The position numbers and the translations under genes were made by a program. A model generated the notes under the pieces. That model did no database searches, was not told the origin of the DNA, and saw nothing but the letters and a program-made list of their open reading frames with translations. This document shows positions 7,104 through 20,551 of a stretch of 64,000 nucleotides of DNA, one piece after another (positions within the stretch are counted from its first letter, which is position 1; every line of letters starts with the position of its first letter). The stretch comes from an uncultured Verrucomicrobiota bacterium (GTDB lineage Bacteria > Verrucomicrobiota > Verrucomicrobiia > Limisphaerales > J093). The stretch spans positions 233-64,232 of the forward strand of contig CAYXPA010000007.1 in the NCBI GenBank assembly GCA_964466945.1, in the 5' to 3' direction.

Positions 7104-7694
7104 ATGAAGACAACCCAACGCCACAACAACCGGGCCGGCTTCACCCTCATCGAGATGGTGGGTGTGCTGGCGGTCATTGCCATCCTCGCGGCCCTCTTGG
7201 TGCCGAAAATCTTCGCGGCGATCAACGAGTCGCGGCTGAACAACGCCCTAGGCGGCATCAACACCTGCAAGACGGCGGCGATCCAGTACTTCACCAAGAA
7301 CGGATCCTTCCCCAGTGTAGACACTAGTGACTTTGACGGGACGCTCCTGACCCAAGGCTTTTTGGACAAGGAACTCGAAGTCAAATTGGGGACGGCGGCC
7401 GATTGCGAAATTGAAGCGACCACAAGTACTGGCGCTGCCGAGGGAGGGTCTGATGGCAACGGGCGTTTTGATCTGGACGGGGATGCGGCGGCAGATGTTC
7501 CGGAAAACGCCAGCGTGGTTCAAGTGGTACTCACGAACGTCAAGCCGGACGATGCGCGCGAACTGAGTTTGCGCCTTGATGGCTCGGACATGAGCGCGGG
7601 CGACACTTCCACAGCAGATAAAGAAGGCCGTGTGGCATACGCTACTCCCTCGGGTGGTTTGGCTACCGTGTACGTGTACCTCGCGCACAAGTAA
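7104..7694 (+). CDS. Type IV pilin, probable major subunit (196 aa precursor)
   Basis: Class III signal MKTTQRHNNRAG|FTLIEMVGVLAVIAILAALLVP with E at +5; own promoter and downstream terminator-like hairpin. Confidence 0.9.
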   Translation: MKTTQRHNNRAGFTLIEMVGVLAVIAILAALLVPKIFAAINESRLNNALGGINTCKTAAIQYFTKNGSFPSVDTSDFDGTLLTQGFLDKELEVKLGTAADCEIEATTSTGAAEGGSDGNGRFDLDGDAAADVPENASVVQVVLTNVKPDDARELSLRLDGSDMSAGDTSTADKEGRVAYATPSGGLATVYVYLAHK

Positions 7695-7855
7695 GCCGGA
7701 GGCGCCGGGGCGGGTCGGGTGACCGTTGGCCCCGGGCGCGCACCGGAATAACAACCCTCTCACAGAACGATGGAACAACGGCGGGCGGACGGGGCTAGCC
7801 GTCCGCCCGCCAAGTCCGCCCAGGGCCCCGCAAGGGGCGCTCACCTCACCATGAA

Positions 7856-7906
7856 CCCCCGGCCGGTCCATTCCGCCTCTGGCAACCGCGCCGGGGGATT
7901 GTTTTT
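7856..7906 (+). terminator. Putative intrinsic terminator between pilin and assembly ATPase
   Basis: CCCCCGGC...GCCGGGGG stem followed by ATTGTTTTT. Confidence 0.55.
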
Positions 7907-7909
7907 CAG

Positions 7910-8090
7910 GAGGCAGGAGGCCGGAGGCAGGAGGCCGGATGCCAGATACCGGATGCCAGATACCGGATGCCAGATACCGGATACCGGATACCGGATTCCG
8001 GAGGCCGGGGGACTGGCACACGGTAGGGCCGCGCTGCGGCGCGGCCGAGCAGGCGGCGCCGGCGCAGCGGCGCCCTACCCAAGCGCGGGC
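7910..8090. repeat. Heptamer run (GGAGGCC, GGATACC/AGATACC) plus GTAGGG REP doublet
   Basis: About 10 heptamers followed by GTAGGGCCGCGCTGC...GCAGCGGCGCCCTAC. Confidence 0.85.
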
Positions 8091-8111
8091 GGGCGTTAGG
8101 ATTTTGAGGCG

Positions 8112-9851
8112 ATGAGTCGCGGGTTGACCAAGACGCCGAGTCAGGCCGGCCCGGTCGTGCAGACCGGGCTGGGCGAGCGGCTGGTGCAGCGCGGGCTGTT
8201 GAGCCCGGCGCAGCTCGAGCTGGTGTACCGCGAGCAGCGGCAGCGCGGGGGCAGCCTGCCGCGGGTGGTCACGGACCTGGGTCTGGTGCCGCCGGACACG
8301 CTGGCGCGCGTGCTGGCCGAGGAGGCGCAGGCGCCGTTGGTGGACCTGAACAAGACGGTGGTGGACCAGGCGGCGTTGAACCTGGTGCCGATGGAGCTGT
8401 GCCGGAAGTACCGGGTGCTGCCGCTGACGCGCGTCAACGGCTCGGTGACGGTGGCGATGGCGGACCCGACGGATATCCGGGCGGTGGACACCTTGCAGCA
8501 GATCACCGGGCTGCACCTGGAGGTGGCCACGGCGCCGGAGCAGGACATTTTGGCGTACCTGGACAGCGTGCTGCAGGGCGGGGAAAGCATCCAGAGCTCG
8601 ATTGACGAGATCATTGATGAAACGGTGTCCCACGACGGGCAACTGGCGACCAAGGAGGAGGTGGACCTGGCGGCGGCCAGCCAGGATGAGGCGCCGGTGA
8701 TCCGGCTGGTGAACCAGATCATCGCCCGGGCGGTAAACATCGGCGCCAGCGACATCCACTTCGAGCCGGAGGAGAAGATGATGCGCATCCGGGTGCGGAT
8801 TGACGGGGTGTTGTTCCCGGACGTGCTCATCCCCAAGTCGCTGCAATCGGCGGTGAGCTCGCGGGTGAAGATTCTGGCGGACATGGACGTGGCGGAGTCG
8901 CGCCTGCCGCAGGACGGGCGGGCGACGGTGTACGTGGGGCGGCGGCAGGTGAACCTGCGGGTGTCGAGTCTGCCGGTGACGTTCGGGGAGAACGTGGTGG
9001 TGCGGATTTTGAACACGGGGACGGGGCTGCTTTCGATCTCGGCGCTGGGGATGGCGCCGGCGGTGGAGGCGCAGTTGCGGGCGGCGATCAACCGGCCGTA
9101 CGGGGTGTTCATCGTGACCGGGCCGACCGGCAGCGGGAAGTCCACCACGTTGTACGCGGTGTTGCGGGAGGTGTCGGGCGCGGACGTGAGCACGTTCACG
9201 CTCGAGGACCCGGTGGAGTACCGGATGCCGGGCATCCGGCAGACGCAGATCAAGGAGGAGATCGGGCTGACATTCAGCGCGGGGCTGCGGACGCTCCTGC
9301 GGCAGGACCCGGACATCATCCTGGTGGGGGAGACGCGGGACACGGAGACGGCGCAGTTGATGGTGCGGGCGGCGCTGACGGGGCACCTGGTGTTCACCAC
9401 GCTGCACACGAACGACGCGCCGGGGGCGATTCCGCGCTTGGTGGACATGGGGGTGGAGCCGTTTCTGTTGCCGGAGTCGCTCATCGGCGTGCTGGCGCAG
9501 CGGCTGGTGCGGCGCTTGTGCGAGAAGTGCAAGGAGCCGGTGCCGGAAGCGGCGGCGGTGTTCGAGCGGCTGGGGGTGCCGCTACCGGAAGGGCCGCCGC
9601 CGCAGTTGTGGCGGGGGCGGGGGTGCCCGGCGTGCAAGAACTCCGGGTACCGCGGGCGGATGGCGATCTTCGAGTTGATGATGGTGGACGAGCGGTTCCA
9701 CGAGCCGATCACCCGCCGGGCCGGCGCCCAGGAGTATGCGCGCCTGGCGCGCGAGGGCGGGATGCGGACGTTGTTCGAGGACGGTCTGCGCCGGGCGCTG
9801 GCCGGGGAGACCAGCCTGGACGAGGTGTTGAACATGACGCGGATCAAGTGA
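8112..9851 (+). CDS. pilB: Pilus/T2SS assembly ATPase (PilB/GspE/MshE family)
   Basis: Walker A GPTGSGKST, ASDIHFEP, RLPQDGR, LRQDPDIILVGE, TGHLVFTTLHTND, tetra-Cys CEKC...CPAC. Confidence 0.93.
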   Translation: MSRGLTKTPSQAGPVVQTGLGERLVQRGLLSPAQLELVYREQRQRGGSLPRVVTDLGLVPPDTLARVLAEEAQAPLVDLNKTVVDQAALNLVPMELCRKYRVLPLTRVNGSVTVAMADPTDIRAVDTLQQITGLHLEVATAPEQDILAYLDSVLQGGESIQSSIDEIIDETVSHDGQLATKEEVDLAAASQDEAPVIRLVNQIIARAVNIGASDIHFEPEEKMMRIRVRIDGVLFPDVLIPKSLQSAVSSRVKILADMDVAESRLPQDGRATVYVGRRQVNLRVSSLPVTFGENVVVRILNTGTGLLSISALGMAPAVEAQLRAAINRPYGVFIVTGPTGSGKSTTLYAVLREVSGADVSTFTLEDPVEYRMPGIRQTQIKEEIGLTFSAGLRTLLRQDPDIILVGETRDTETAQLMVRAALTGHLVFTTLHTNDAPGAIPRLVDMGVEPFLLPESLIGVLAQRLVRRLCEKCKEPVPEAAAVFERLGVPLPEGPPPQLWRGRGCPACKNSGYRGRMAIFELMMVDERFHEPITRRAGAQEYARLAREGGMRTLFEDGLRRALAGETSLDEVLNMTRIK

Positions 9852-9867
9852 GGCGGAGGGCGACTTG

Positions 9868-11085
9868 ATGAAGAGCTACCTGTATCGCGGCGTGGACAGT
9901 CAGGGCCGGAGCGTCTCGGGGCGGATGCTGGCGTTGAACGAGGAGGAGATGGAGGCGCGGCTGCGGGCGGCGGGGCTGTGGCTGGCCGAGGCCCACGAGG
10001 AGGGGGAGAAGGAGGCGGGGCTGTCGGCGCGGCGGTTGAGCCGGCGGCCGTCGCGGCGGGAGCTGATCAACTTCTGCGTGTTGATGAGCTTCCAGCTCAA
10101 GGTGGGCATTCCGATGGTGACGGCGCTGCGGGTGGCGGCGGAGGATTGCGAGAACAAGGCGTTTCGGGCGGTGCTCGAGGCGATGCGGCAGGACGTGGAG
10201 GCGGGATTGCAGTTGCACGAGACGATGCGGCGGCACCGGATTTTCTCGGAGCAGTTTGTGGCGCTGGTCGAGGCGGGGGAAGAGAGCGGCACGCTGCCGG
10301 ATTCGTTCATGGAATTGCGCCGCTACCTCGAGTGGCAGGAGCAGATCATTTCGGACGTGCGCCAGGCCACGATTTACCCGGCCATCGTACTGGCGGTGGT
10401 GATCCTGTTTGTGTTGATCCTGTTCACCTTCGTGGTGCCGCGGTTTGTGAGCCTGCTGACCGCGGCGAAGGTGGCGCTGCCGCTGCCGACGCGGATGGTT
10501 TTTGGGATCAGCGATTTCATCAAGAGCACCTGGTACCTCTGGTTCGGCCTGGCGCTGGGGGTGCCGGCGGTGATCACCGTGGGGCGGCGCGTGTCGCACC
10601 GCTTTGCGGTGTGGTTTGACCAGGTGAAGTTCCGCCTGCCGCTCTTCGGCAGCCTCAACCACATGCTCTGCATCGCCCGGTTCGCGCGCAACCTGGCCAT
10701 CCTGTATCGCGCGGGGGTGAACATCGTCGAGGCGCTCAAGCTCACCGCCAGCCTGGTGGGCAGCGTGTGGGTGGGGGATTGCGTGCGGGAGGTCAGCCAG
10801 CGCATCGAGCGGGGCGAGACGGTGAGCGGGGCGATGAAGGAATATCCGGTCTTTCCGGGCCTGCTGAACCGGATGGTGGTCATGGGCGAGAACACCGGGC
10901 AGTTGGACCAGGCCCTGGACAACGTGGCCGAGTACTACAACCTGGTCGTGCCCCGGGCCATCAAGCGCATTTTCAGCATCGCCGAGCCGGCCCTGATCCT
11001 GTTCCTGGTGGGGGTGGTCGGGCTGGTGGCGGTGGCCATCTTCATGCCCATCCTCGGCATGGTGACCGCGGTGGGCAAGAACTAG
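9868..11085 (+). CDS. pilC: Inner-membrane platform protein (PilC/GspF/MshG family)
   Basis: EAGEESGTL and MGENTGQLD repeats, EPALIL, three TM segments; GGAGGG RBS. Confidence 0.92.
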   Translation: MKSYLYRGVDSQGRSVSGRMLALNEEEMEARLRAAGLWLAEAHEEGEKEAGLSARRLSRRPSRRELINFCVLMSFQLKVGIPMVTALRVAAEDCENKAFRAVLEAMRQDVEAGLQLHETMRRHRIFSEQFVALVEAGEESGTLPDSFMELRRYLEWQEQIISDVRQATIYPAIVLAVVILFVLILFTFVVPRFVSLLTAAKVALPLPTRMVFGISDFIKSTWYLWFGLALGVPAVITVGRRVSHRFAVWFDQVKFRLPLFGSLNHMLCIARFARNLAILYRAGVNIVEALKLTASLVGSVWVGDCVREVSQRIERGETVSGAMKEYPVFPGLLNRMVVMGENTGQLDQALDNVAEYYNLVVPRAIKRIFSIAEPALILFLVGVVGLVAVAIFMPILGMVTAVGKN

Positions 11086-11111
11086 GAAAACCTCCAACCC
11101 GGGAACACCCC

Positions 11112-12239
11112 ATGAAACTCTCCAACCTACCCAAGCCGCGCCGGCACACCCGCCGGCCCGCGCGCGCGGCCCGCGCGTTCACCGTGGTCGAGCTGGTGGG
11201 CGTGCTGGCCATCGTGGCCATTATCGCCGCCCTCATGGCGGAAAACATCATCGAGAAGATGCGCCTGGCCGCCATTGATGCCGAGCGCACCTCGCTGGCC
11301 TCGCTGACCAAGACGCTCGAGCGCTACGTCGTTCGCACCAAAAGCATCCCGGCCCTCAACGACCTGTCCACCGCGCTGGCGGCGGACCTGGCCGTGGCGC
11401 AGGACCGGGTCACGCAAACCGCCCAGGGCAACCCACGCTGGTTCTGGGTGGACCCCGATCACCGGGTGGGCACCAACACGACCAGCACGCTGCCGTTTAC
11501 GCAGACCGGGCTGGGCAGCCTGCAGCCGCAGAAATTGCGGATGGTGGTCATTTCGAGCATCGGCGCGCCGTTACCCACCCCGGCCATCAACCCCAACGCC
11601 ACCCAGTTCCAGCAGGCGTGGAACGCCGTGGCGGGGTCGGTGCCGGCGTTTCTGACCTCGTCGTGGAACGGGCGGCCGGACGATCTGAACATTCAGCGCC
11701 TCGAGCTGGGGGCGCTCTTCTGCCGGGTGGTGCTCGAGAACCTCGACGCCAACTACGACGCCTGGTACTCGGTGGACACCACCAACACGCTCAGTTCGAT
11801 TCCCAAGCCCTCCGGCACCGCCAGCAACAGCAGCCGCATGTTCTGGTTGGTGCGCGGCACGGTGCTCAACTTCCACTATCCCGACACCGACCGGACCATC
11901 CAGGCCCGCGAGTACATCATGGAGGACGTGGGCTACACCTTCGAGAACGGCCGCTGGGGCCGCTACCTGCGCTACGGGCCGAACCGGAGCAACGGCTGGT
12001 TCGGCGAGATGGTGGACAAGTTCCTGGCCGCGCCGGCGCCGCCCGGGGCCACGCGGCGGTACTCGACCCAGCAATGGGTCGTGGATGCGATGTACCAGTT
12101 CCTGTACTGCTTCGGGCAGTGGTCGCTGGACAACTTCTACGGCGGCCCGCCCTGGCCGCACATCCCGGGTTACGAGCAGTCCAACGCCGGCGCCACCGGC
12201 CTGTCGGACTACTCGAGTGACCTGCTCATCGTGAACTGA
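11112..12239 (+). CDS. Large pilin-like protein 1 (375 aa)
   Basis: Basic leader then A|FTVVELVGVLAIVAIIAALM class III signal; paralogous to the next two genes. Confidence 0.82.
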   Translation: MKLSNLPKPRRHTRRPARAARAFTVVELVGVLAIVAIIAALMAENIIEKMRLAAIDAERTSLASLTKTLERYVVRTKSIPALNDLSTALAADLAVAQDRVTQTAQGNPRWFWVDPDHRVGTNTTSTLPFTQTGLGSLQPQKLRMVVISSIGAPLPTPAINPNATQFQQAWNAVAGSVPAFLTSSWNGRPDDLNIQRLELGALFCRVVLENLDANYDAWYSVDTTNTLSSIPKPSGTASNSSRMFWLVRGTVLNFHYPDTDRTIQAREYIMEDVGYTFENGRWGRYLRYGPNRSNGWFGEMVDKFLAAPAPPGATRRYSTQQWVVDAMYQFLYCFGQWSLDNFYGGPPWPHIPGYEQSNAGATGLSDYSSDLLIVN

Positions 12240-12249
12240 GGAGGCCGCC

Positions 12250-13407
12250 ATGCGCATCCCCGGAACATCCCAAAGGGCCGGTCCGCCCGGCGGGCGCGCG
12301 CCCCGGCGCGAAGCCGCCGGCGCCCTGGTGTGGGTGATGGCGATGCTGGCCACGCTTTCCATCCTGGCCGCCGTGCTGATGCCCAACCAAATCCGGTCGC
12401 TGAGCGAGGCCGACCTGGCGCGCGAGGCACAGGCATTGCAGCGGCTCAAGGAAGGCCTGCGCGAGTACATCCTCACCACCCGCTCGGTGCCCGCGGCCAG
12501 CACGGTCTTCACCAATCTGGCCGACACCCTGGGCTGGGAGATCGGCCTGACCCGCACCAACCACCGTGGCAACCCGCGCGTGTACCTGGTGGATCCGAAC
12601 TTCCGCCTGGGCGCCACGACCGCGAACAACCTGCCGTTTGTGCAGGGCGTGTACGGCATCACCAACACCAGCAACCTGCGCCTGGCCCTGGTCTCGAGCG
12701 TGGGCGAGCCCCTGCCGGCCATCCTCACCAACCCGGGCACCAACGCCGCGCAGGTGTTCTCGATGCTCTGGCACGCGCCCGAGGGCACCGAGCCGCCCGG
12801 CTGGACCTGGGGCGGCAACTGGGCGGACATCCGCGTGGCGCGCCTGGACCTCGAGCCGCTGCTGACCCGCATCCGGCTGATCAACAGCACCAACAACGCC
12901 GCCGGCGTGGTGGGCCGCTTCTCGGTGGACAACACCAACAGCCCGGTCGCACTGCCGACCAACGACTTCAGCGCCCTGTACTTCGTGCGCAGCGAGCTGG
13001 GCCTGCACAGCCACACCAGTCCCTATGCGTTACAGACCCGGCAGGTCCTTCAGGACGTGCCCCTAGCCACCAACGGCCCGCCCTATCTGCTCATGCCCAC
13101 CTTCGTTTACGAGGACGGCGTCTGGCGCGGCCGCTTCTACAAAGGCACCCAGGCCCAGAAGCACAACGGGGAAGACCTCCAGTGGGCCTACGAGATTTTC
13201 ATGTCCGGCCCGGCCAACGTGTACATGGTGGGGTCGGTCACGCAGACCTCGCTCACCCTGCGGATGTGGGAGTACATGAGCAACTACGTCCGGTGGACCG
13301 AGCAGGGGTTCAGTACGAGCTTCAAACAATCCGTGCTCCAGCCCTCGCAGCAGGCCATGGCCAGCGAGCTGAGCACCTACTGCAACAAGAAGGCCTCGGT
13401 CAATTAG
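12250..13407 (+). CDS. Large pilin-like protein 2 (385 aa; lacks E+5, PilX/GspK-like)
   Basis: REAAG|ALVWVMAMLATLSILAAVLMP; shares GNPRVYLVDP, LVSSVGEPLP, FSVDNTN, YEIFMSGP, TYCNKKAS with neighbours. Confidence 0.78.
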   Translation: MRIPGTSQRAGPPGGRAPRREAAGALVWVMAMLATLSILAAVLMPNQIRSLSEADLAREAQALQRLKEGLREYILTTRSVPAASTVFTNLADTLGWEIGLTRTNHRGNPRVYLVDPNFRLGATTANNLPFVQGVYGITNTSNLRLALVSSVGEPLPAILTNPGTNAAQVFSMLWHAPEGTEPPGWTWGGNWADIRVARLDLEPLLTRIRLINSTNNAAGVVGRFSVDNTNSPVALPTNDFSALYFVRSELGLHSHTSPYALQTRQVLQDVPLATNGPPYLLMPTFVYEDGVWRGRFYKGTQAQKHNGEDLQWAYEIFMSGPANVYMVGSVTQTSLTLRMWEYMSNYVRWTEQGFSTSFKQSVLQPSQQAMASELSTYCNKKASVN

Positions 13408-13419
13408 GAGCGGCCTGTC

Positions 13420-14601
13420 ATGAAAACCCGTTTTTCGCCTCCCCCACCCCGCCCGCGGACCCGCGCCGCGCGTGCCTGGCCGGCCGGGCCGCCGGGCGCG
13501 CGGGCCTTTCCGCCCCGCCGTCAGCGCGCCTTCAGCCTGCTGGAAATCGCCGGCGTGTTGAGCGTGCTGACCATCCTGGCTTCCCTGGCCCTGCCCTCGC
13601 TCCTGCAGCAACTGAGCGAACTGGCCCGCCGCCAGGAGCTCGAGCGCCTGAGCCAGATCGGCCAGGGCCTGCGCGAATACATCCTGCGCGCCCACCAGGT
13701 GCCCGCCCTGAACACCCTGGCCACAAACGTGGCCGAGGTGTTGGGCTGGCCGGTCCGGTGGGTGCTGGAAACCGCCGCTGGTCAGCCCCGGGTGTTTCTC
13801 TACGACCCGGAGTTGCAGATCGGGACCACCACGGCATCCACGCTGCCTTATGTGCAGACCACCAGCGGCGCCGCCGCGCTCAGTGGCGCGCGTTTCCTGA
13901 TCGTGTCCAGCCTGGGCGCGGCCCTGCCGAGTGTGATCGGGAACCCCGGCAGCAACGCCGTGACGGTTTTCAACCTCCTGTGGGACGCCCCGGACGGCAC
14001 GCCACCGCCGGGCTGGACCTGGGGCGGCGAGTGGCGGCAAATCCTGGTGCAGCGGGTGAACCTCCAGCCGTTGTTCACCCGGGTGGTGCTCAACAACAAC
14101 CACATCCGCTTCGGCCGTTACTCGGTGGACAACACCAACGCCCCGGTCGCGCTGACCACCAACAGCTTCACCGCCTTCTTCCTGGGCCGCACCCAACTGG
14201 GCCTGCACGGCGACGGCACCGGGCCGCTTCAGTCCGTGCAACTGGTGCCGAGCGCCGAGGCGGCCAGTCGGGACCCGACCTATGCCTGGTATCCCTCCTA
14301 CGTGTACGAACGCGGCATCTGGCGCGGCCGCCTGTTCATGGAGACGCCCCTGCCGCGGCGCTCCGGCAACGACCTCCAGGCCGCGTACGAGATTTTCATG
14401 TCCGGCCCGCCCAACGTGTACAAGGTGGGCAGCGTGACGCAGTCCAGCGTGACCTGGGCCATGTACAACTTCATGAGCAACTACGTGGTCTGGGCCAACA
14501 GCGGCTTTAGCACCTCGGCCAAAGTAAATGTCACCCTGTGGCAGAGCTCGATGGCCACCCAGGTCAAGACCTATTGCAACAAGAAGGCCTCGACCAAATA
14601 A
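13420..14601 (+). CDS. Large pilin-like protein 3 (393 aa)
   Basis: QRA|FSLLEIAGVLSVLTILASLALP class III signal; strong similarity to protein 2 (GLREYIL, PPGWTWGG, YEIFMSGP, TYCNKKAS). Confidence 0.82.
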   Translation: MKTRFSPPPPRPRTRAARAWPAGPPGARAFPPRRQRAFSLLEIAGVLSVLTILASLALPSLLQQLSELARRQELERLSQIGQGLREYILRAHQVPALNTLATNVAEVLGWPVRWVLETAAGQPRVFLYDPELQIGTTTASTLPYVQTTSGAAALSGARFLIVSSLGAALPSVIGNPGSNAVTVFNLLWDAPDGTPPPGWTWGGEWRQILVQRVNLQPLFTRVVLNNNHIRFGRYSVDNTNAPVALTTNSFTAFFLGRTQLGLHGDGTGPLQSVQLVPSAEAASRDPTYAWYPSYVYERGIWRGRLFMETPLPRRSGNDLQAAYEIFMSGPPNVYKVGSVTQSSVTWAMYNFMSNYVVWANSGFSTSAKVNVTLWQSSMATQVKTYCNKKASTK

Positions 14602-14618
14602 CCCCGCAACCCCGCGCC

Positions 14619-16169
14619 ATGCTTACCCTTCGCGCCCGCAGCTCCCCCGCCCGCCGCAGTCTGCCCGGCCACCACCACACGCTGAGCGTGTCTTGGTTGC
14701 GCAAGCACTTCCGCGCCGTGGCGGTGCATCGCGGCCAGGTCACCGGCGTCTGGGAATCGCCCGAGCCGGTCGAGGGCACCGACCGGTTTGCGGAGCTGCT
14801 GCAAAAGGCCATCGCCGCCACCGGGTACGCCGGCTCGACCGTGTCGCTGGTGCTGGTGCACCAACACCTGGTGCACCTGCTCATCGAGGTGCCGCCGGTC
14901 AAGCGGAGCATGTTGGACAAGGTGGTCAACCGCCAGGCCCAGCAACAACGGCTCTTCCCCGGCCAGGCCGTCTGGAGCATAGCCCCGGCCGAGAGCCCGA
15001 AGAAGGGCCCGCCGCAGTATCTGCTGAACCTCTTCCCGCAACTGCTCCTGGAGGAACTGCTGGCCGGTGCCCAGCGCGCGGGGTGTTACCTCACCGCCGT
15101 CATTCCCGCCACGGCGATCCTGCGCGAACAGTTGTTCGAGTTGCCCGTTCCCGAAAGCCAGGTGGCTATGATCGTGGCACTCACCGGCGAGAACACCACC
15201 GTGCTGGTCGGCCGCAGCGACGGCCGGTTGCTGCTGGCGCGCGTGCTCCCGGGCAACTGGGAGGACAGTTTCGCGCGTCTGGTGGTGGACCTCAAACGCA
15301 CCCTGCTCTTTGTCAACCAGCAGGAGGGCGTGAACGTGGACCACCTCTGGCTCTTCGGCCCCGGGGCCGAGGCCCAGGTGGCGCGCGTGCAGGAGCAGAC
15401 CGGCCTGCCCACCCAGCCCAGCCCCACGCCTTGGTCGGAGGATTACTGGGCCCTGGCCGCCCTGCGCCTGGAGCCCAATCAAAGCCAGAACCTGGTGCCG
15501 CCCGAACTCCGCCAGGCCCCGCAACGCCACATCTTCGCCAAGGTCGTGGGCACCATCACCGCCCTGGCGGTCCTGGCCTCAGCCATTTTCTCCTGGAAAC
15601 TCCACGGCATGTACCGGGACGAGCTGCAAAACGTGCGGCATCTCGAACAGGAGGTTGCGCGCCTCCAGGCCCGTCACCAGGAATTGCAACGCCTCGAGGC
15701 CGAGGCCGCGCACCGCCGCGGCCTGGTGGACCTGGTCAGCGCCAACCGCCCCGATCCCGTGCCACTGTGGCTGCTGGGCTACCTGGGCGAAGCCGTGCCG
15801 CCGGACCTGGTGGTCACCAACTTCCAGTGCGCCCGCGAAGGGCCTTACTGGCACCTGCGGTTGAGCGGACTGCCCCAGCCCCGCACCGGCCAGAGCCGGG
15901 ACCTGCTGGCCCTGGAGCGTGACCGGAACCTCCTCAGCAACCGGCTGATGAACGGCCCGTTCCACGTCCGCTTCACCCCGCCCGACACCAACACGCTGGC
16001 CGCCGCGGCCGCCAGTGCCGCGCCGACCAACGCCGCCCCAGCGGTCGCCACCGCGGCGCCCAGTTCGGCCGATCTATTGGCCTTCCTCAAACGGCTCCGG
16101 GCCGATACCGGCACCGCGCCCACCAACTCGCCGGCGGAATTTGCCCTTGAAGGCTGGATGCACCCATGA
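14619..16169 (+). CDS. Probable PilM/PilN-like (GspL/MshI-like) alignment protein
   Basis: Large cytoplasmic domain (LARLVVDLKRTLLFV, LWLFGPG), one TM helix, coiled coil, then VVTNFQC...WHLRLSG ferredoxin-like periplasmic part; position in the operon. Confidence 0.65.
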   Translation: MLTLRARSSPARRSLPGHHHTLSVSWLRKHFRAVAVHRGQVTGVWESPEPVEGTDRFAELLQKAIAATGYAGSTVSLVLVHQHLVHLLIEVPPVKRSMLDKVVNRQAQQQRLFPGQAVWSIAPAESPKKGPPQYLLNLFPQLLLEELLAGAQRAGCYLTAVIPATAILREQLFELPVPESQVAMIVALTGENTTVLVGRSDGRLLLARVLPGNWEDSFARLVVDLKRTLLFVNQQEGVNVDHLWLFGPGAEAQVARVQEQTGLPTQPSPTPWSEDYWALAALRLEPNQSQNLVPPELRQAPQRHIFAKVVGTITALAVLASAIFSWKLHGMYRDELQNVRHLEQEVARLQARHQELQRLEAEAAHRRGLVDLVSANRPDPVPLWLLGYLGEAVPPDLVVTNFQCAREGPYWHLRLSGLPQPRTGQSRDLLALERDRNLLSNRLMNGPFHVRFTPPDTNTLAAAAASAAPTNAAPAVATAAPSSADLLAFLKRLRADTGTAPTNSPAEFALEGWMHP

Positions 16170-16915
16170 GCACCGACAACGACAAATCCTGGCCGGCCAT
16201 CCCGCCCTCGCAGTTGAAGCTCAGCCGCGGCGAGTCGGGGACCGAGTCTGCCCCGCCGGAGACGCCGGCTCCACCTGCCCCAGCCGATGCGCCGGCTGGC
16301 GCGCCCGGCCTGCGCCGCCCGCCGCCGCCGAAGAAGGCTTCCCTCACCACCCGCGACTGGGTGATCCGCGGGGCGATGGTGGGCATTTTGCTGGCCGCTC
16401 TCGGTGTATTGGTCTGGAGCTACCAGCGGCTCATGCCCCTCCAGGCACAGGGCCGCCGCCTGACCGAACGCGTCAACAAACTCCAAGAAGAGGTCGCCCT
16501 GATGGAGCGGGGCTATACCCCGGCCGACCTCGAAAAGCTGGCCCGCGAGTTCCAGTTCGCCGGCGCGCAACTCTTCGGCGGCGAAGAGGCCCTGGCCGCC
16601 TGGTTCAACGGCCTGCGCCGACGCTCGGTGCCCCTGGCCCTGGAGGCCAATGCCGACTTCGGCCCGCCACGCACCCCCGCCACCAACTACTCCGTGGCCG
16701 TGGTCCCGGCCACGCTCACCCTCAACATCAAGCCCAGCGAAGACGCCACCTCGCCGCGCAGCCCGCACGTGCGGGTGTTGACCCTGCTCGATGAACTGGT
16801 GCGGCAGACCAACCGGGCGGACCTCCTGGCGCTGCACATCACCGCGGGCTCCAACTCGATCGCCCAGGTCCGGGCCGTCTTCGAGCTCTGGGCCGGACAG
16901 GAGGCCACCCCATGA
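16166..16915 (+). CDS. Probable PilO-like (GspM/MshJ-like) protein
   Basis: Single TM helix, coiled coil, periplasmic alpha/beta domain; ATGA overlaps with both neighbours. Confidence 0.55.
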   Translation: MSTDNDKSWPAIPPSQLKLSRGESGTESAPPETPAPPAPADAPAGAPGLRRPPPPKKASLTTRDWVIRGAMVGILLAALGVLVWSYQRLMPLQAQGRRLTERVNKLQEEVALMERGYTPADLEKLAREFQFAGAQLFGGEEALAAWFNGLRRRSVPLALEANADFGPPRTPATNYSVAVVPATLTLNIKPSEDATSPRSPHVRVLTLLDELVRQTNRADLLALHITAGSNSIAQVRAVFELWAGQEATP

Positions 16916-17520
16916 ACCGCTGGCGGGTGCAAGTCCTCATCGTGGCCGGCGCCCTGGTGGTGGTCGCCGTGGCCGCCCTGCTGCTCTGGCCCAAACTCAA
17001 GTCCTCGCCCGTGGCCGCCGCCGTCAACCGGAGCCAACAGGCCACCAATCTCACCGCGGCGGCGTCAACCCCGGGCGCCACCAACGTCGCGACCAACGCG
17101 TCGCCGGCCCCGGACAACCTGCCACGGTTGGACCGGCGCGCCATCCTCGAACGCTGGCCGGAGTGGGCGGAGGGACACTACCGCGATCCGTTCCAGGTGA
17201 TGTTTCCGGTGAGCACCGGAGCGGTCGCGCAGGCCGAGTTGACCCCCGCCCGGCACTTGAAACTCTCCGCCACGTGGGTACAGACCGGCAGCCGGCTGGC
17301 CGTCATTGATCAGCGCATCTATGGCGTGGGCGACAAGGTCGCCGGGTACACCGTGCTCCAGATCGAGCACGGCCAGGTGGACCTCCAAGGGCCGGAGCGC
17401 AACGAAACCATCACCTTCGCCACCTACGTGCCCCCGCCGCCGCCCGGCCAGGGCCGGCTCATCAGCACCAATCTCATCGAAAAATTGCTGGGTCCCGAAC
17501 AGGAAAAACTCCGCAACTGA
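16912..17520 (+). CDS. Probable PilP/MshK-like protein
   Basis: N-terminal TM, YRDPF motif, LKLSATW...RLAVID...YGVGDKVAGYTVLQIEHGQVDL beta domain; directly before the secretin. Confidence 0.6.
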   Translation: MNRWRVQVLIVAGALVVVAVAALLLWPKLKSSPVAAAVNRSQQATNLTAAASTPGATNVATNASPAPDNLPRLDRRAILERWPEWAEGHYRDPFQVMFPVSTGAVAQAELTPARHLKLSATWVQTGSRLAVIDQRIYGVGDKVAGYTVLQIEHGQVDLQGPERNETITFATYVPPPPPGQGRLISTNLIEKLLGPEQEKLRN

Positions 17521-17526
17521 GGCTTT

Positions 17527-19245
17527 ATGAGTCCGAACACCTCCTTGCTCCAATCCCAACCTGCTGTGTACGCCGCTCCGAACCGGTTTGGGCGCCGCTC
17601 GGGCGTGGCATCCCGGCCGCTGTCCAGCGCAGCGCGCGCACGCGGGCTGCTGGTGCTGGCCCTGAGCGGCGCGTGCCTGCTCGCAGGCGCCGCCGAGGCC
17701 AAACGCTCCGACCGCAACCAGTTTGTGCCGGACTGGAGCAAATTCGAGGCGCCGCCTTACCTGAACACGCCGGACCAACCCACGCCCGGCCCGGCTCCTG
17801 AACCGGAACCGCCGGCGCCGCCGCCTCCCGGCCCCGAGTCCCACGTCGCGGACAAAAAGTTGTACAGCTTCGCCGCGGACAACCTGGAGCTCAAGGCCGC
17901 CCTGGCCATGTTCGCCCGGGCCAATGACCTGAACATCGTGCCGGACAATGATGTCACCGGCACGGTCACGCTGGACGTACGCGGCCTGCCGTTGGACCAG
18001 ATGATGCGCGCCCTGCTCGAAGCGCACGACTGCACCTGGAGCGAGCAAGACGGCCTGATCCGCGTGCGCACCACCGAGACGCGGCTCTTCAAGGTGGATT
18101 ACCTGCGCCTGAGCCGCACCGGCCAGGGCCAGAGCTCGGCCATGCTGGCCGCGGGCAGCACCGGTGGCGGCATGGGTGGCGGGATGGGCGGTGGCATGGG
18201 TGGCGGCATGGGCGGCGGCATGGGCGGCGGCGGTGGCATGGGTGGCGGCATGGGCGGTGGCATGGGCGGGATGGGTGGCGGCATGGGCGGCGGTGGTGGC
18301 GGTGGCGGTTCGTCCATCAGCCTCACGGCGGACAACCCGGTGGATTTCTGGAAGGAACTCAAGGACGAACTGGGCGTACTGCTTACCGAGAAGGGCAAGA
18401 ACTCGATCGCCATCAACATGACCGCCGGGCTGATCCAGATCACTGACCGGCCCTCGGCGTTGCGCCGGGTCGAAGACTACCTGCAGGGCCTGCGGCAGAC
18501 CGTCCAGCGCCAGGTGGAAATCGAGGCCAACATCTACGACGTAACCCTCAACGACAACTTCCAGTTTGGCATTGACTGGGCGCGGGTCATGGAATCGGCC
18601 AGCCAACGATTCACTTATGGCAGCTCCACTCTCCCTGAGGTCATCGGCGGCGGAAGCCTGGGCGAATCCTCCCTCACCCTGAACTACCTGAGCGTGCCCC
18701 ACGGCACCCGCGTGGTGGTGGACGCGCTCCGCCTGCAAGGCGCGGTGGAAATCATTTCCAAACCGCGCATCCGTGCCCTGAACAACCAGACCGCGCTGAT
18801 CAAGGTGGGCACCGAAACGCCGTTTTTCGCGCAAACTTCCTCCTTTATGCAAAACGCCGGCGGCACGACCCAAACCCAGGGCGACCAGATCATGATGATC
18901 ACCGTGGGCGCCATTCTGGCCATCACGCCCCAAATCTCCGAAGACGGCCAGATCGCCCTGGACATCTCGCCCGTGTTGACCAGCCTCGTCGGCACCGAGC
19001 GGTCTCCCAGCGGCACGGCCACGGCGCCGATCCTCGACACCAAGCAGGCCTCGACCATGGTCCGGGTGCCCAGCGGCACCACCGTGGTCCTGGGCGGACT
19101 CATCCAGACCGAACGGGCTCGCAACAAACGCAAGGTACCGGTGGTCAGCGACATTCCCGGCCTGGGCGCGCTGTTCACCGGCCACTACGACGCCAAGCGC
19201 AAAAAGGAACTCGTCATCTTCCTGACACCACGATTGATCAACTAA
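17527..19245 (+). CDS. Outer-membrane secretin (MshL-like) with (GGGM)n loop
   Basis: STN-like N domain (LNIVPDNDVTGTVTL), N3 domain, RQVEIEANIYDV, SKPRIRALNNQTALIKVG, VPSGTTVVLGGLI, IPGLGALF, KELVIFLTPRLI. Confidence 0.92.
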   Translation: MSPNTSLLQSQPAVYAAPNRFGRRSGVASRPLSSAARARGLLVLALSGACLLAGAAEAKRSDRNQFVPDWSKFEAPPYLNTPDQPTPGPAPEPEPPAPPPPGPESHVADKKLYSFAADNLELKAALAMFARANDLNIVPDNDVTGTVTLDVRGLPLDQMMRALLEAHDCTWSEQDGLIRVRTTETRLFKVDYLRLSRTGQGQSSAMLAAGSTGGGMGGGMGGGMGGGMGGGMGGGGGMGGGMGGGMGGMGGGMGGGGGGGGSSISLTADNPVDFWKELKDELGVLLTEKGKNSIAINMTAGLIQITDRPSALRRVEDYLQGLRQTVQRQVEIEANIYDVTLNDNFQFGIDWARVMESASQRFTYGSSTLPEVIGGGSLGESSLTLNYLSVPHGTRVVVDALRLQGAVEIISKPRIRALNNQTALIKVGTETPFFAQTSSFMQNAGGTTQTQGDQIMMITVGAILAITPQISEDGQIALDISPVLTSLVGTERSPSGTATAPILDTKQASTMVRVPSGTTVVLGGLIQTERARNKRKVPVVSDIPGLGALFTGHYDAKRKKELVIFLTPRLIN

Positions 19246-19309
19246 CCCCGGTCGTTTGGCCGGGCGCCTCGTCGCAGGCGCCGGCCGGCGGCCCCAACCC
19301 CAAAACGCC

Positions 19310-20551
19310 ATGAAACTCAACCCCCTCACCATCCCCGCCCACGCGTGCGTGCTGGGCGCCCTGTGGCTGGCCACCCTGCCCGGCCGGAGCGAGGACTACG
19401 ATCAGTGGACCCTCCTGCAACCCTACGACCTGGGCGGGTGGAACCGCACCGTGTCCACGCCGGTGGCCAACGCCAGCCTCAATTCCTTCCTGCCCGAAAA
19501 CAGCGGCGAGTACGTGGCCGTGTGGGACCTCGAGGACGGCACGGCCCTGGTCGAACGCAGCAACATGGGCGGCCAGCAAGCCTGGGCCTGGAGCCCACCT
19601 CTGCCCAAACCTGACCCCCAGGAAACCACGCGCGCGGTCATCGCCGGTCCCACGCATCTGCTCTGGGCCAGTTCCCTGCGCTGGTATTATCTGAACCTTA
19701 CCAACGGCACGGTCGCCCGCAGCGGGACCTGGTCGTTGCCCTACCTGGATGCCACGCGGGTGGTGCCGCAAAACGACCTGCTCTACGTGATTTACCAGCC
19801 CGACAACCAGCTCGTTGCCTCCGTGTACAACACCAACATGGAGTCCCTGGGGACTCTTCAACTCTCCTGGCCCGAAGGTTTCTGGCGCGCCTACGCCGGC
19901 ACCTGGATGGTGGACCTGAGCCAGCGCACCACCCGCCGCCTGCGGGCCGCCCGGTTGGGGCCGAACCTGTCCGTCCTGGGCGTCACTCAGGTGGAATTCC
20001 AGCACACCCGCGAGGGCGGTTACCTCGAGCATGTGGTCCTGGGCGCAAACACCAACGGCCTGTTCCTGGCCTCGACCCTGATCTGGCCGGAGACCGCCAC
20101 GACCTACTTCACCTACCTCAACGCCGAGGGCAACGTCGCCTTCCAGCACCGGCTCACCGCCAACCAGATGATCACCGGCGCGGCCGTCCTCCCGGATGGC
20201 TGGGTCCTGAGCGCGCAATTCCTGGGCGAGCCGACCTCCCGGCACACGCTCTACCGGGTGGACACCTACGGCCGCCCGCACTGGCAGGTGCAATTTGCGG
20301 CCGACCCCACCCAGCAAAACGTCATCGTCAATACCACCCCGCCCCGCCTGCTGCGCTTCAACAACGCCACGCCCTTTGAACTGCGCGAGGTCACTCCCGT
20401 GAACTGGTGGAGCGTGTGGGATCGCCTGCTGTGGTACGGACCCTGGCACGGCGTCGAGCTGTTCTGGCACGGCGCCGCCTTCGACATCTCGGGCATTTGC
20501 GGCGACACGAACTACTTCTGGCGCGAGCCGGTCCGCCCGAACAACACCTGA
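19310..20551 (+). CDS. Secreted hypothetical protein (413 aa), last gene of the pilus cluster
   Basis: Signal-peptide-like N terminus, Trp/Tyr/Thr-rich beta-type sequence, GC-biased codon usage; no family recognised. Confidence 0.7.
   Translation: MKLNPLTIPAHACVLGALWLATLPGRSEDYDQWTLLQPYDLGGWNRTVSTPVANASLNSFLPENSGEYVAVWDLEDGTALVERSNMGGQQAWAWSPPLPKPDPQETTRAVIAGPTHLLWASSLRWYYLNLTNGTVARSGTWSLPYLDATRVVPQNDLLYVIYQPDNQLVASVYNTNMESLGTLQLSWPEGFWRAYAGTWMVDLSQRTTRRLRAARLGPNLSVLGVTQVEFQHTREGGYLEHVVLGANTNGLFLASTLIWPETATTYFTYLNAEGNVAFQHRLTANQMITGAAVLPDGWVLSAQFLGEPTSRHTLYRVDTYGRPHWQVQFAADPTQQNVIVNTTPPRLLRFNNATPFELREVTPVNWWSVWDRLLWYGPWHGVELFWHGAAFDISGICGDTNYFWREPVRPNNT

What the first reader, a model, noticed from the sequence alone, without database searches (positions are those of the whole stretch)
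7104..20551. Type IV filament locus with three paralogous ~380-aa pilin-like subunits
Seen: the order is small pilin, ATPase, platform, three large pilin-like genes, PilM/N-like, PilO-like, PilP-like, secretin, unknown secreted protein. The three large proteins (11112-14601) are clearly paralogous (G.PR....DP, .SS.G.PLP, (Y/F)SVD.TN, (F/Y)E.G.W). Two have E+5 with Ala at -1 and one lacks E+5. No PilT or prepilin peptidase is in the cluster. Established: T2SS and T4aP tips use a set of dissimilar minor pilins with one E5-less member. Inference: here the tip complex is built from three copies of one large unrecognised fold, possibly a pseudo-trimeric adhesin or substrate platform, so this may be an undescribed verrucomicrobial type IV filament subtype. 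The secretin and PilP-like genes look most MSHA-like.
Basis: partly seen in the sequence, partly recalled or inferred. Interest (0 to 1): 0.75.

Follow-up and report, generated by a model that had tools for sequence, protein, structure and literature searches.

The report
Divergent verrucomicrobial pilus operon, three big pilins
This is a complete one-operon type IV filament (pilus or secretion) machine from an uncultured verrucomicrobium, and its three large "minor pilin" subunits are copies of one protein with a previously unseen head fold; the set recurs, with a dedicated beta-propeller protein, in many related environmental genomes.

Summary
Window 7104-20551 (+) is a tightly packed operon. 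It encodes a 196-aa pilin, a PilB/MshE-type ATPase with an MshE-type c-di-GMP motif, a PilC/GspF platform and three ~380-aa pilin-like paralogues. These are followed by three bitopic membrane proteins, an MshL-like secretin and a secreted protein.

P2 and P3 are 49% identical. P1 is 29-33% identical to each. P1 and P3 keep Glu5 and P2 lacks it, and this pattern holds in every three-copy related locus checked.

The ~300-aa heads match no Pfam or NCBIfam family and no PDB sequence. A confident AlphaFold model has no Foldseek match. The family has about 513 clusters at 50% identity. All named genomes are Verrucomicrobiota, except one short contig from an Omnitrophota MAG.

New here: the "unknown secreted protein" is a beta-propeller that travels with the large pilins. 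This recalls PilY1 with the minor pilins.

No curated cut-off for T2SS or T4aP is reached. MshL is reached only marginally, and MshM, MshN, PilT and a prepilin peptidase are absent.

Most likely this is a divergent MSH/T4aP-like filament machine whose priming/tip complex is a P1-P2-P3 heterotrimer plus the propeller. The complex itself is inferred. The PilM/N and PilO labels are unverified.

Verdict: new variant of a known kind.

The parts
7104..7694 (+). Major pilin candidate, 196 aa, MKTTQRHNNRAG|FTLIEMVGVLAVIAILAALLVP
   Evidence: N_methyl PF07963 scores 30.6 bits (cut-off 21.2). GspG and PilA models match the N-terminal helix only. Orthologues in 10 loci share the N-terminus, and L004 has six tandem copies. 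GC is ~59% against a window mean of ~70%.
8112..9851 (+). Extension ATPase of the PilB/MshE/GspE family, 579 aa, with an N-terminal MshEN domain
   Evidence: T2SSE 4.5e-127 and MshEN 1.1e-21. The MshE-related c-di-GMP motif NF053729 scores 43.6 bits (cut-off 38). GspE scores 569.6 (cut-off 630.25) and PilB 565.1 (cut-off 675.65). The closest solved structures are Thermus PilF (506.6 bits) and PilB (460.4), ahead of GspE (396.8), although the GspE matches cover only query residues ~183-577.
9868..11085 (+). Inner-membrane platform protein of the PilC/GspF family, 405 aa
   Evidence: T2SSF 5.4e-54 with two repeats. GspF scores 298.2, below its cut-off of 424.
11112..12239 (+). P1: large pilin-like protein, 375 aa, A|FTVVE with Glu5 present. 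The most divergent paralogue and always first in the set.
   Evidence: Orthologues at 45-86% identity occupy the same position in all related loci, with Glu5 in 49 of 50 P1-like family members.
12250..13407 (+). P2: large pilin-like protein, 385 aa, without Glu5
   Evidence: The P2 orthologues in all 7 three-copy loci have V, H, G or I at +5. Across the family, 24 of 44 P2-like members lack Glu at +5.
13420..14601 (+). P3: large pilin-like protein, 393 aa, A|FSLLE with Glu5 present
   Evidence: The AlphaFold2 model has mean pLDDT 82.9, with a helix at 40-91, a beta-rich head and a C-terminal three-helix bundle. No Foldseek PDB match reaches E<=1e-3. Glu5 is present in 108 of 110 P3-like members.
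14619..16169 (+). Bitopic assembly-platform candidate, 516 aa: a ~300-aa cytoplasmic domain, a TM segment at 305-323, a coiled coil and a periplasmic domain. By position it resembles MshI, GspL or a PilM-PilN fusion.
   Evidence: One TM segment. No Pfam or PDB-sequence match, even with a 63-sequence profile. hhalign of its C-terminal part against the next protein gives probability 80%, E 1.4e-5. JGI names 2 of 120 homologues 'PilN'.
16166..16915 (+). Bitopic protein, 249 aa, TM at 65-83 followed by a coiled coil. PilO/GspM/MshJ-like by position and topology only.
   Evidence: with no family match. The gene overlaps its neighbours by 4 nt.
16912..17520 (+). Bitopic protein, 202 aa, N-terminal TM and a C-terminal beta domain. 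A PilP/GspC/GspB-like candidate for binding the secretin.
   Evidence: GspC_delta NF041515 gives 5.6e-6 at 26.3 bits, far below its cut-off of 150. Six of 11 orthologues hit T2SSB PF16537 weakly and one hits T2SSC.
17527..19245 (+). Outer-membrane secretin, 572 aa, MshL-like, with a Gly/Met-rich low-complexity linker
   Evidence: Secretin 1.4e-43, Secretin_N_2 and STN. MshL TIGR02519 scores 250.9 (cut-off 250.2). PilQ scores 174 (cut-off 284.35) and GspD 162.7 (cut-off 351.35). The closest solved structure is V. cholerae PilQ 6w6m.
19310..20551 (+). Secreted beta-propeller protein, 413 aa, co-conserved with the large pilins
   Evidence: AlphaFold2 gives pLDDT 79.4 and pTM 0.81, all-beta with ~28 strands. 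Foldseek finds 268 PDB matches at E<=1e-3, all propellers among those listed (BamB 1.4e-8, RACK1; TM 0.4-0.47). No Pfam family matches in 8 of 8 orthologues. It is present in 7 related loci, and in L004 it is duplicated together with P1-like and P2/3-like genes.

Best explanation
The region is a self-contained type IV filament operon of a divergent MSH/T4aP-like lineage. So far this lineage is seen almost only in Verrucomicrobiota.

Shown:
- The operon encodes a PilB/MshE-type ATPase carrying an MshE-type c-di-GMP-binding motif, a PilC/GspF platform, one ordinary pilin, three paralogous large pilins, three bitopic membrane proteins, an MshL-like secretin and a secreted beta-propeller.

Inferred mechanism:
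- A prepilin peptidase encoded elsewhere cleaves the four pilins.
- P1, P2 and P3 assemble through their N-terminal helices into a heterotrimeric priming complex that ends up at the filament tip.
- The E5-less P2 sits at the apex, because the first subunit needs no Glu5. P3 and P1 sit below it.
- The propeller docks on this complex in the way PilY1 docks on PilX and the other minor pilins.
- The ATPase, probably switched on by c-di-GMP, then adds the 196-aa pilin underneath and pushes the filament through the secretin.
- The 516-, 249- and 202-aa proteins connect the platform to the secretin, as MshI/J/K, GspL/M/C or PilMN/O/P do.
- The most probable output is an adhesive, surface-attachment pilus.
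For: - Core machine: family matches, and the closest solved structures.
- Paralogy of the three pilins.
- Pilin nature of P1-P3: the family profile matches the alpha1 helix of GspG, PilA, PilE and MshA in the PDB, and the model has a 52-residue N-terminal helix.
- Three stable orthogroups in a fixed order P1-P2-P3 across about 12 loci. Glu5 is kept in P1 (49/50) and P3 (108/110) and lost in the P2 orthologues of all 7 three-copy loci.
- Published logic: the first subunit needs no Glu5, and the bulky GspK has a hydrophobic residue at that position (PMC5207764). PilX homologues lack Glu5 and are modelled next to PilY1, whose C-terminal domain is a beta-propeller preceded by a type I signal peptide (PMC7541494).
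- The last gene encodes a propeller.
- In L004 a P1-like gene, a P2/3-like gene and a propeller-like gene are duplicated together after the secretin. This points to a functional module.
- A single locus without a peptidase matches the MSH pattern (PMC6668835).
- Pointers to a pilus rather than a pseudopilus: the pilin is long (196 aa), has low GC and is present as six tandem paralogues in L004.
Against: - No direct or modelled evidence exists that P1, P2 and P3 bind each other or the propeller.
- Loci L013, L015 and L016 have only two large pilins, with Glu5 in the P2/3-like copy. L018 has four. A strict trimer is therefore not universal.
- The propeller has no sequence relationship to the PilY1 domain, and PilY1 is not among the top 50 Foldseek hits.
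- The cytoplasmic domain of the 516-aa protein could not be shown to be PilM/GspL-like.
- No PilT was found, so retraction is unknown.
- Nothing distinguishes adhesion from secretion or DNA uptake.
Confidence: 0.6

Rival explanations
1. The operon is a T2SS-like protein secretion machine. The 196-aa pilin forms a periplasmic pseudopilus, and P1-P3 form its tip, as GspI-J-K do. The tip engages exoproteins and pushes them through the secretin. The propeller would be a substrate or a pilotin-like accessory.
For: - The best NCBIfam hits are GspG for the pilin (9.7e-10) and GspE for the ATPase (4.9e-171). GspF is the best hit for the platform. The 202-aa protein hits GspC_delta weakly, and its orthologues hit T2SSB and T2SSC weakly.
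- No PilT is present in the window.
- The genes form a single operon.
- One large minor pilin lacks Glu5, as GspK does (PMC5207764).
Against: - Every T2SS equivalog cut-off is missed by a wide margin, and the GspG hit covers the N-terminal helix only.
- The secretin scores far better as MshL or PilQ than as GspD (250.9 and 174 against 162.7).
- Full-length PilF and PilB are the closest solved ATPases. The solved GspE chains match only the C-terminal two-thirds of the query, so their lower scores are not like for like.
- The pilin is long, and L004 carries six tandem paralogues of it.
- No GspH, I, J, K, L or M signatures were found.
- The Foldseek search of the P3 model returned no significant PDB match of any kind, so no GspK-like fold was detected.
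Confidence: 0.2
2. P1-P3 are not a tip or priming complex. They are modular adhesive pilins interspersed along the filament, or pilin-like cargo that is processed by the peptidase and released or displayed. In that case the three copies simply diversify binding specificity.
For: - Large heads grafted onto a pilin helix are typical of modular pilins, as titles and abstracts returned by the literature search describe for S. sanguinis PilB (PMC8179133, listing).
- Copy number varies from 2 to 4 or more between loci.
- The family is large, at about 513 clusters.
Against: - The orthogroups are conserved one-to-one in a fixed order next to the platform gene.
- Glu5 is lost systematically in just one orthogroup. 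That pattern is expected of an initiating subunit and not of shaft subunits or cargo.
- The heads are conserved (mean column identity 35% over 58 sequences). The major pilin C-terminus, by contrast, has low GC and weak codon bias.
Confidence: 0.12
3. The locus is an ordinary MSH, T4aP or T2SS system. Its minor pilins and alignment proteins are the usual families, diverged beyond the reach of the searches used. On this reading nothing is structurally new.
For: - MshL reaches its curated cut-off, and the MshE-type c-di-GMP motif is present.
- A single locus without a peptidase matches MSH (PMC6668835).
- Gene order from the 516-aa protein to the secretin mirrors mshI-J-K-L. This rests on my own knowledge of the Vibrio locus.
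- PVC-group proteins are often highly divergent.
Against: - A confident model of P3 (210 residues with pLDDT >=90) has no PDB neighbour at all. The best TM-score is 0.16, with nothing at E<=1e-3. Solved GspK, PilW/X-type and CofB structures should have been hit if the fold were shared.
- The three heads are recognisably homologous to each other, unlike canonical minor pilin sets.
- MshM, which is mandatory in the MSH model, and MshN are missing (PMC6668835).
Confidence: 0.08

Closest known systems
T4aP PilY1 / minor-pilin (FimU-PilV-PilW-PilX) priming and tip complex (M. xanthus, P. aeruginosa; PMC7541494)
   Same: A set of minor pilins is encoded together, and one of them lacks Glu5. A Sec-exported beta-propeller protein is co-encoded. 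The predicted role is to prime extension and then remain at the tip.
   Different: - There are three minor pilins here, not four, and they are clear paralogues of one ~380-aa protein rather than dissimilar small pilins.
- The propeller is a bare 413-aa protein with no PilY1-domain sequence match and no vWFA N-terminal domain.
- The operon is a single locus, and no PilT or recognisable PilMNOP was found.
T2SS pseudopilus tip GspI-GspJ-GspK
   Same: Three subunits would form a quasi-helical cap, and the large apical one (GspK) has a hydrophobic residue instead of Glu5 (PMC5207764). The genes form a single operon and there is no retraction ATPase.
   Different: GspI, J and K differ from each other in size and fold elaboration. 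P1-P3 share one head that has no significant PDB structural match. No T2SS equivalog cut-off is reached.
T4bP initiator minor pilins CofB and TcpB (the CofB homotrimer at the pilus tip, Kawahara et al. 2016, is cited in PMC5207764)
   Same: Three copies of one large pilin with an extended C-terminal region would sit at the tip and initiate assembly. The system lacks a retraction ATPase.
   Different: CofB is a homotrimer of a single gene product that keeps Glu5. Here three differentiated paralogues would form a heterotrimer, and one has lost Glu5. No CofB entry appears in the Foldseek list shown. The ATPase and secretin are T4a/MSH-like, not T4b-like (BfpD scores only 117.5 bits).
MSHA (MSH) pilus system of Vibrio and Shewanella, as modelled by Denise et al. 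2019 (PMC6668835)
   Same: The system is a single locus without a prepilin peptidase. The ATPase carries an MshEN c-di-GMP motif. The secretin is of the MshL type, with Secretin_N_2. The order of the bitopic proteins and the secretin matches.
   Different: MshM (mandatory in the model) and MshN are absent. The minor pilins are not of the MshB/C/D/O/P type. MshI/J/K homology is undetectable. MSH had been reported only in Proteobacteria (Gamma and Epsilon) and Chrysiogenetes.

Membership tests
Type IV filament superfamily (TFF-SF) | GspE/PilB-family AAA+ ATPase | tested here: met
   PF00437 T2SSE scores 4.5e-127, 424 bits.
Type IV filament superfamily (TFF-SF) | Polytopic PilC/GspF platform protein | tested here: met
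   PF00482 T2SSF scores 5.4e-54 with two repeats.
Type IV filament superfamily (TFF-SF) | Subunits with a class III signal peptide and a hydrophobic alpha1 helix | tested here: met
   The pilin scores 30.6 bits on N_methyl, above the 21.2 cut-off. P1 and P3 are sub-threshold (14.3 and 19 bits), but the family profile matches the alpha1 helix of solved pilins (GspG 2e-6).
Type IV filament superfamily (TFF-SF) | Prepilin peptidase (PilD/GspO) | tested here: not met
   No Peptidase_A24 hit was found in any window gene scanned. The rest of the genome cannot be searched. MSH loci also lack one (PMC6668835).
MSH (MSHA-type) pilus | MshL secretin | tested here: met
   TIGR02519 scores 250.9 bits against a cut-off of 250.2, which is marginal.
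MSH (MSHA-type) pilus | MshE ATPase with a c-di-GMP-binding MshEN motif | tested here: met
   NF053729 scores 43.6 bits against a cut-off of 38. PF05157 MshEN scores 1.1e-21. The domain also occurs in PilB and GspE, so it is not specific to MSH.
MSH (MSHA-type) pilus | MshM (mandatory in the MacSyFinder model) and MshN | tested here: not met
   No AAA_22/ExeA-like or TPR protein is in the operon or among the window genes scanned. The model definition is from PMC6668835.
MSH (MSHA-type) pilus | MshI/J/K alignment proteins and MshB/C/D/O/P minor pilins | tested here: inconclusive
   Position and topology fit, but there is no profile match. The MSH-specific HMMs from MacSyFinder were not available.
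Type II secretion system | GspD, E, F and G at equivalog level | tested here: not met
   GspE 569.6 (cut-off 630.25), GspF 298.2 (424), GspD 162.7 (351.35), GspG 38.6 (88.85).
Type II secretion system | Minor pseudopilins GspH/I/J/K and GspL/M/C | tested here: not met
   P1-P3 give no hit beyond the N-terminal helix. GspC_delta scores 26.3 against a cut-off of 150. No T2SSL, T2SSM or T2SSK Pfam hit was found. The Foldseek search of the P3 model returned no significant PDB match.
Type IVa pilus | PilB and PilQ at curated level | tested here: not met
   PilB 565.1 (cut-off 675.65) and PilQ 174 (cut-off 284.35).
Type IVa pilus | PilT retraction ATPase and recognisable PilM/N/O/P | tested here: not met
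   There is no second T2SSE-family gene among the window genes scanned. The three bitopic proteins and their orthologues give no PilM_2, PilN, PilO or PilP Pfam hits. A PilT elsewhere in the genome cannot be excluded.
PilY1 family | PilY1/PilC C-terminal domain (modified beta-propeller) detectable by profile | tested here: not met
   None of the 8 orthologues gives any Pfam hit at E<=10. The fold is a generic propeller, closest to BamB and RACK1, and PilY1 is not in the top 50.
CofB/TcpB large T4b minor pilins | Pilin domain plus beta-repeat and beta-sandwich domains, forming a homotrimer | tested here: not met
   No PDB match for the P3 model reaches E<=1e-3. The profile search against PDB sequences matches only alpha1 helices. 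The oligomeric state cannot be tested with these tools.

The most novel reading that the evidence does not exclude
This may be a distinct, so far unnamed class of type IV filament machine, characteristic of Verrucomicrobiota (Verrucomicrobiales and Pedosphaerales). On this reading:

- The cap is partnered with a dedicated minimal beta-propeller.
- The alignment proteins have diverged beyond recognition.
- The machine may be the main surface-attachment or exoprotein-delivery organelle of these abundant soil and freshwater bacteria.
Probability: 0.35. Interest if true: 0.7.

Novelty: new variant of a known kind. Interest (0 to 1): 0.55.

Why it matters
How the tip of a type IV filament is built is a central open question in the field, because the tip controls initiation, adhesion and substrate choice. 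All well-studied systems use either four dissimilar minor pilins with or without PilY1 (T4aP, T2SS) or one large homotrimeric pilin (T4b).

A heterotrimer of three recent paralogues would be an evolutionary intermediate between these two solutions. The duplication order is still readable in the sequences: P1 diverged first, then P2 and P3 separated, and Glu5 was then lost in P2. Such a system would be convenient for studying how a homotrimeric cap becomes differentiated.

The finding also assigns a role to a family of about 500 clusters of 'hypothetical' or 'PulG-like' proteins, and to an orphan propeller family, in Verrucomicrobiota, a phylum whose surface organelles are almost unstudied. The head domain is a candidate new fold.

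Tried and rejected
- Pfam and NCBIfam scans of all eleven products found no family for the P1-P3 heads, the 516-aa protein, the 249-aa protein or the propeller.
- Scanning every orthologue at E<=10 gave only coiled-coil and TM noise for the 516-aa and 249-aa proteins. The 202-aa protein gave weak T2SSB and T2SSC hits. The propeller gave nothing.
- Profile searches against PDB sequences were run for the P family, the 516-aa family (12 and then 63 sequences), the propeller, and the 249-aa and 202-aa proteins. They returned only alpha1-helix matches for the P family and noise for the rest.
- Foldseek of the P3 model against the PDB gave its best hits to cholesterol-dependent cytolysins, at E 0.015-0.1 and TM 0.11-0.14. 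I rejected these as non-significant. Against viral BFVD there was one hit at 9e-4 with TM 0.17, also rejected.
- The idea that the heptamer arrays and palindromes flanking the operon are pilus-specific phase-variation elements was rejected. The same elements occur in at least ten intergenic sites across the window.
- The terminator-like hairpin after the pilin gene is not above chance expectation.
- The ORF at 7770-8099 and the ARAGORN tRNA-Arg at 9486-9582 are treated as spurious. The first lies in a repeat array and the second lies inside the ATPase gene.
- A conserved lone C-terminal Cys (TYCNKKA) in P2 and P3 was considered as an intersubunit disulfide. It is conserved only in the closer relatives (34 of 52 P2-like and 37 of 121 P3-like), so it is left as an observation.

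Full report
**What is in the sequence**

The window is ~70% GC with very strong third-position GC bias in genes. On the + strand, 7104-20551 holds eleven co-directional genes separated by 4-nt overlaps (the 516/249/202-aa trio) or gaps of up to ~65 nt. The one exception is a 417-nt repeat-filled gap after the first gene. The same gene calls exist on a 79-kb JGI metagenome contig carrying the identical locus.

The products are:

| Coordinates | Product | Key evidence |
|---|---|---|
| 7104-7694 | 196-aa pilin, G\|FTLIE | N_methyl above cut-off |
| 8112-9851 | 579-aa ATPase | T2SSE 4.5e-127, MshEN, MshE-type c-di-GMP motif 43.6 bits vs 38 |
| 9868-11085 | 405-aa platform | T2SSF |
| 11112-12239 | P1, 375 aa | large pilin-like |
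| 12250-13407 | P2, 385 aa | large pilin-like |
| 13420-14601 | P3, 393 aa | large pilin-like |
| 14619-16169 | 516-aa bitopic protein | one TM segment |
| 16166-16915 | 249-aa bitopic protein | one TM segment |
| 16912-17520 | 202-aa bitopic protein | one TM segment |
| 17527-19245 | 572-aa secretin | Secretin 1.4e-43; MshL 250.9 vs cut-off 250.2 |
| 19310-20551 | 413-aa exported protein | see below |

Family matches are, and the membrane topology. Flanking genes are housekeeping: PDH E1, NYN, NikR on one side and YchF, DHFR on the other. No window gene scanned encodes PilT, a prepilin peptidase, MshM or MshN.

**The three large proteins**

They are unquestionably paralogues. P2-P3 are 49% identical (E 2e-120), P1-P3 33% (1e-39) and P1-P2 29% (2e-34).

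Each protein has a basic leader, a class III-type cleavage site and a hydrophobic helix. P1 and P3 have Ala at -1 and Glu at +5. P2 has no Glu5; it has Val or Trp at +5, depending on the register.

Only the N-terminal ~65 residues resemble anything known. A 58-sequence profile matches the alpha1 helices of GspG, PilA, PilE and MshA in the PDB and nothing else. Pfam and NCBIfam see only the N-terminal helix.

AlphaFold2 on that alignment gives a confident model, with mean pLDDT 82.9 and 210 residues at 90 or above. It shows a 52-residue alpha1 helix, a beta-rich head and a C-terminal three-helix bundle. Foldseek finds no PDB structure at E<=1e-3, and the best TM-score is 0.16. It finds nothing meaningful among viral models either. 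So the heads are not recognisable as GspK, PilW/X, CofB or any other solved minor pilin.

**Conservation**

- A word-indexed search found 78 clusters at 90% identity, all from metagenomes or MAGs and none carrying a Pfam domain.
- An exhaustive profile search of 1.84 billion representatives found 513 clusters (50% identity) at E<=1e-30. The top 150 listed are nearly all full-length matches.
- In GTDB species representatives, 13 of 14 loci are Verrucomicrobiota (Verrucomicrobiales, Pedosphaerales). The other is a short contig from an Omnitrophota MAG.
- The closest relative is a Verrucomicrobiales MAG, with P3 at 86% and the ATPase at 96% identity.

Synteny mapping across about 12 distinct loci shows the same order everywhere: pilin(s), ATPase, platform, P1, P2, P3, then the alignment proteins and secretin. 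The 202-aa protein and the exported protein take either of two positions.

P1, P2 and P3 are separate orthogroups. Glu5 is kept in P1-like members (49/50) and P3-like members (108/110). It is replaced by V, H, G or I in the P2 orthologue of all seven three-copy loci. Three loci have only P1 plus one P2/3-like copy, which keeps Glu5. One distant locus has four copies. The likely history is P1 versus the P2/3 ancestor first, then the P2/P3 duplication, then loss of Glu5 in P2.

**The last gene**

AlphaFold2 with 21 sequences gives an all-beta model of ~28 strands, with pTM 0.81. Foldseek returns 268 PDB matches at E<=1e-3. All of those listed are beta-propellers, led by BamB at 1.4e-8 and RACK1, with TM 0.4-0.47.

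The protein has a hydrophobic, signal-peptide-like N-terminus. This is my reading of the sequence, and the model shows a low-confidence helix at residues 10-20. It has no Pfam family and only 20 clusters in the word-indexed search.

The protein is present in seven related loci. In L004 a second module of P1-like, P2/3-like and propeller-like genes follows the secretin. This argues that the propeller works with the large pilins.

**The alignment proteins**

The 516-aa protein has a ~300-aa cytoplasmic part, one TM segment, a coiled coil and a periplasmic domain. Its C-terminal part aligns to the next protein by hhalign (probability 80%, E 1.4e-5). Part of that signal comes from the TM and coiled-coil regions.

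No profile or PDB-sequence match supports PilM, GspL, MshI, PilN or PilO, even with 63 sequences. JGI of 120 homologues PilN.

The 202-aa protein has weak, recurring hits to secretin-binding GspB/GspC-type domains.

These labels are therefore plausible by position and topology but unverified.

**Classification**

- T2SS: the equivalog cut-offs are all missed. GspE scores 569.6 (cut-off 630.25), GspF 298.2 (424), GspD 162.7 (351.35) and GspG 38.6 (88.85).
- T4aP: the cut-offs are missed too. PilB scores 565.1 (675.65) and PilQ 174 (284.35).
- The closest solved ATPases are full-length Thermus PilF and PilB. GspE scores lower, but its solved chains match only query residues ~183-577, so the comparison is not like for like.
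- The closest solved secretin is V. cholerae PilQ.
- MSH-like traits: the MshL hit, the MshE-type c-di-GMP motif, Secretin_N_2, single-locus organisation and the absence of a peptidase. Denise et al. describe the last two as typical of MSH (PMC6668835).
- Against MSH: MshM, which is mandatory in their model, and MshN are absent. That paper reports MSH only in Gamma- and Epsilon-proteobacteria and Chrysiogenetes.

I conclude that the locus is a divergent MSH/T4aP-like system that fits no canonical class. A MacSyFinder run and marker phylogenies are still needed.

**Mechanism**

Shown: all parts of a secretin-dependent type IV filament machine are present and conserved as a unit.

Inferred: P1, P2 and P3 form the priming complex that becomes the filament tip, with P2 at the apex. 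The reasoning comes from two papers.
- Glu5 of an incoming subunit neutralises the N-terminal amine of the previously added subunit, so only the very first subunit can do without it. GspK, the bulky apical T2SS pseudopilin, has a hydrophobic residue at that position (PMC5207764).
- PilX homologues also lack Glu5. They are modelled at the top of the minor-pilin stack, contacting PilY1, a Sec-exported protein with a C-terminal beta-propeller (PMC7541494).

The present locus has the same logic with different parts: one E5-less large pilin, two E5-bearing paralogues, and a co-segregating propeller. The nearest analogue for three copies of one large pilin at the tip is the CofB homotrimer of type IVb pili (cited in PMC5207764). 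Here the trimer would be a differentiated heterotrimer.

The c-di-GMP motif suggests that assembly is switched on by c-di-GMP, as it is for MSHA pili (my own knowledge of V. cholerae MshE).

The function could be adhesion, secretion or DNA uptake. I favour an adhesive pilus because the pilin is long, has low GC with weak codon bias in its C-terminal half, and is multiplied to six tandem paralogues in L004. A T2SS-like role remains a serious rival.

**Verdict**

Novelty of the heads and the non-canonical class are supported, while the tip-trimer model is a reasonable but untested inference.

This is a new variant of a known kind of machine, with a candidate new fold and a sizeable uncharacterised family behind it. 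It is of moderate to good interest to specialists in type IV filaments and in PVC bacteria.

Noticed in passing
window 4992-7100: About 2.1 kb upstream of the pilin gene is GC-rich and shows no codon periodicity. It is built from a 537-557-bp unit repeated ~2.5 times (copies 100% and 83% identical). Each unit carries a (CGGATGC)n heptamer array, 47-nt hairpin arms and a 59-nt palindrome, CGGTAGGGCCGCGC...GCGGCGCCCTACC.
   Followed up: partly
window 641-675, 5561-5634, 6098-6171, 7916-8008, 20839-21183, 22449-22525, 24581-24636, 25948-25989, 33290-33369: The same heptamer arrays and palindrome recur in many intergenic regions. The heptamer pattern matches 49 times against 0.1 expected, and the palindrome core 19 times against 0.24 expected. 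This looks like a genome-wide REP/MITE-like element and is not specific to the pilus locus. No Rfam family matches.
   Followed up: partly
window 7104-7694: The major pilin gene has ~59% GC against ~70% for the window, and weak third-position bias in its C-terminal half. This is compatible with diversifying selection or with horizontal exchange of the pilin gene.
   Followed up: no
window 9486-9582: ARAGORN calls a 97-nt tRNA-Arg (gcg) inside the ATPase coding sequence. It is almost certainly a false positive.
   Followed up: no
window 18163-18293 (secretin residues ~224-272): A Gly/Met-rich low-complexity linker, (GGGM)n followed by poly-Gly, lies between the N-terminal domains and the secretin core. 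At the DNA level it is encoded by a 12-nt tandem repeat.
   Followed up: no
P2 378 and P3 386 (window ~13381-13383 and ~14575-14577); orthologues in L004-L016: P2 and P3 end in a conserved TYCNKKA(S/T) motif. Its Cys is often the only Cys of the mature protein, which suggests a possible intersubunit disulfide. It is conserved in 34 of 52 P2-like and 37 of 121 P3-like family members, and not in P1, which ends ...IPGYEQSxAGATGLxDYSSDLLI.
   Followed up: partly
L004 1-4236 and 17458-21152: The related locus on a 3.5-Mb contig has six tandem pilin paralogues upstream of the ATPase. After the secretin it has a second module of P1-like, P2/3-like and propeller-like genes.
   Followed up: partly
window 42614-52417 (-): A giant 3267-aa protein carries 8 lamin-tail domains, He_PIG/cadherin-like Ig repeats, and CotH and PA14 domains. 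It is probably a surface adhesin or glycan-binding protein.
   Followed up: no
window 52622-53164 and 53436-53978: Two 543-nt genes, 100% identical, encode a 180-aa PEP-CTERM protein. Identity extends ~50-100 nt upstream. This is either a very recent tandem duplication or an assembly artefact.
   Followed up: partly
window 35389-38223 (-): A 944-aa ORF with a signal-peptide-like N-terminus lies in a lower-GC stretch of the window (62-65% GC; GC3 0.78). It was not characterised.
   Followed up: no
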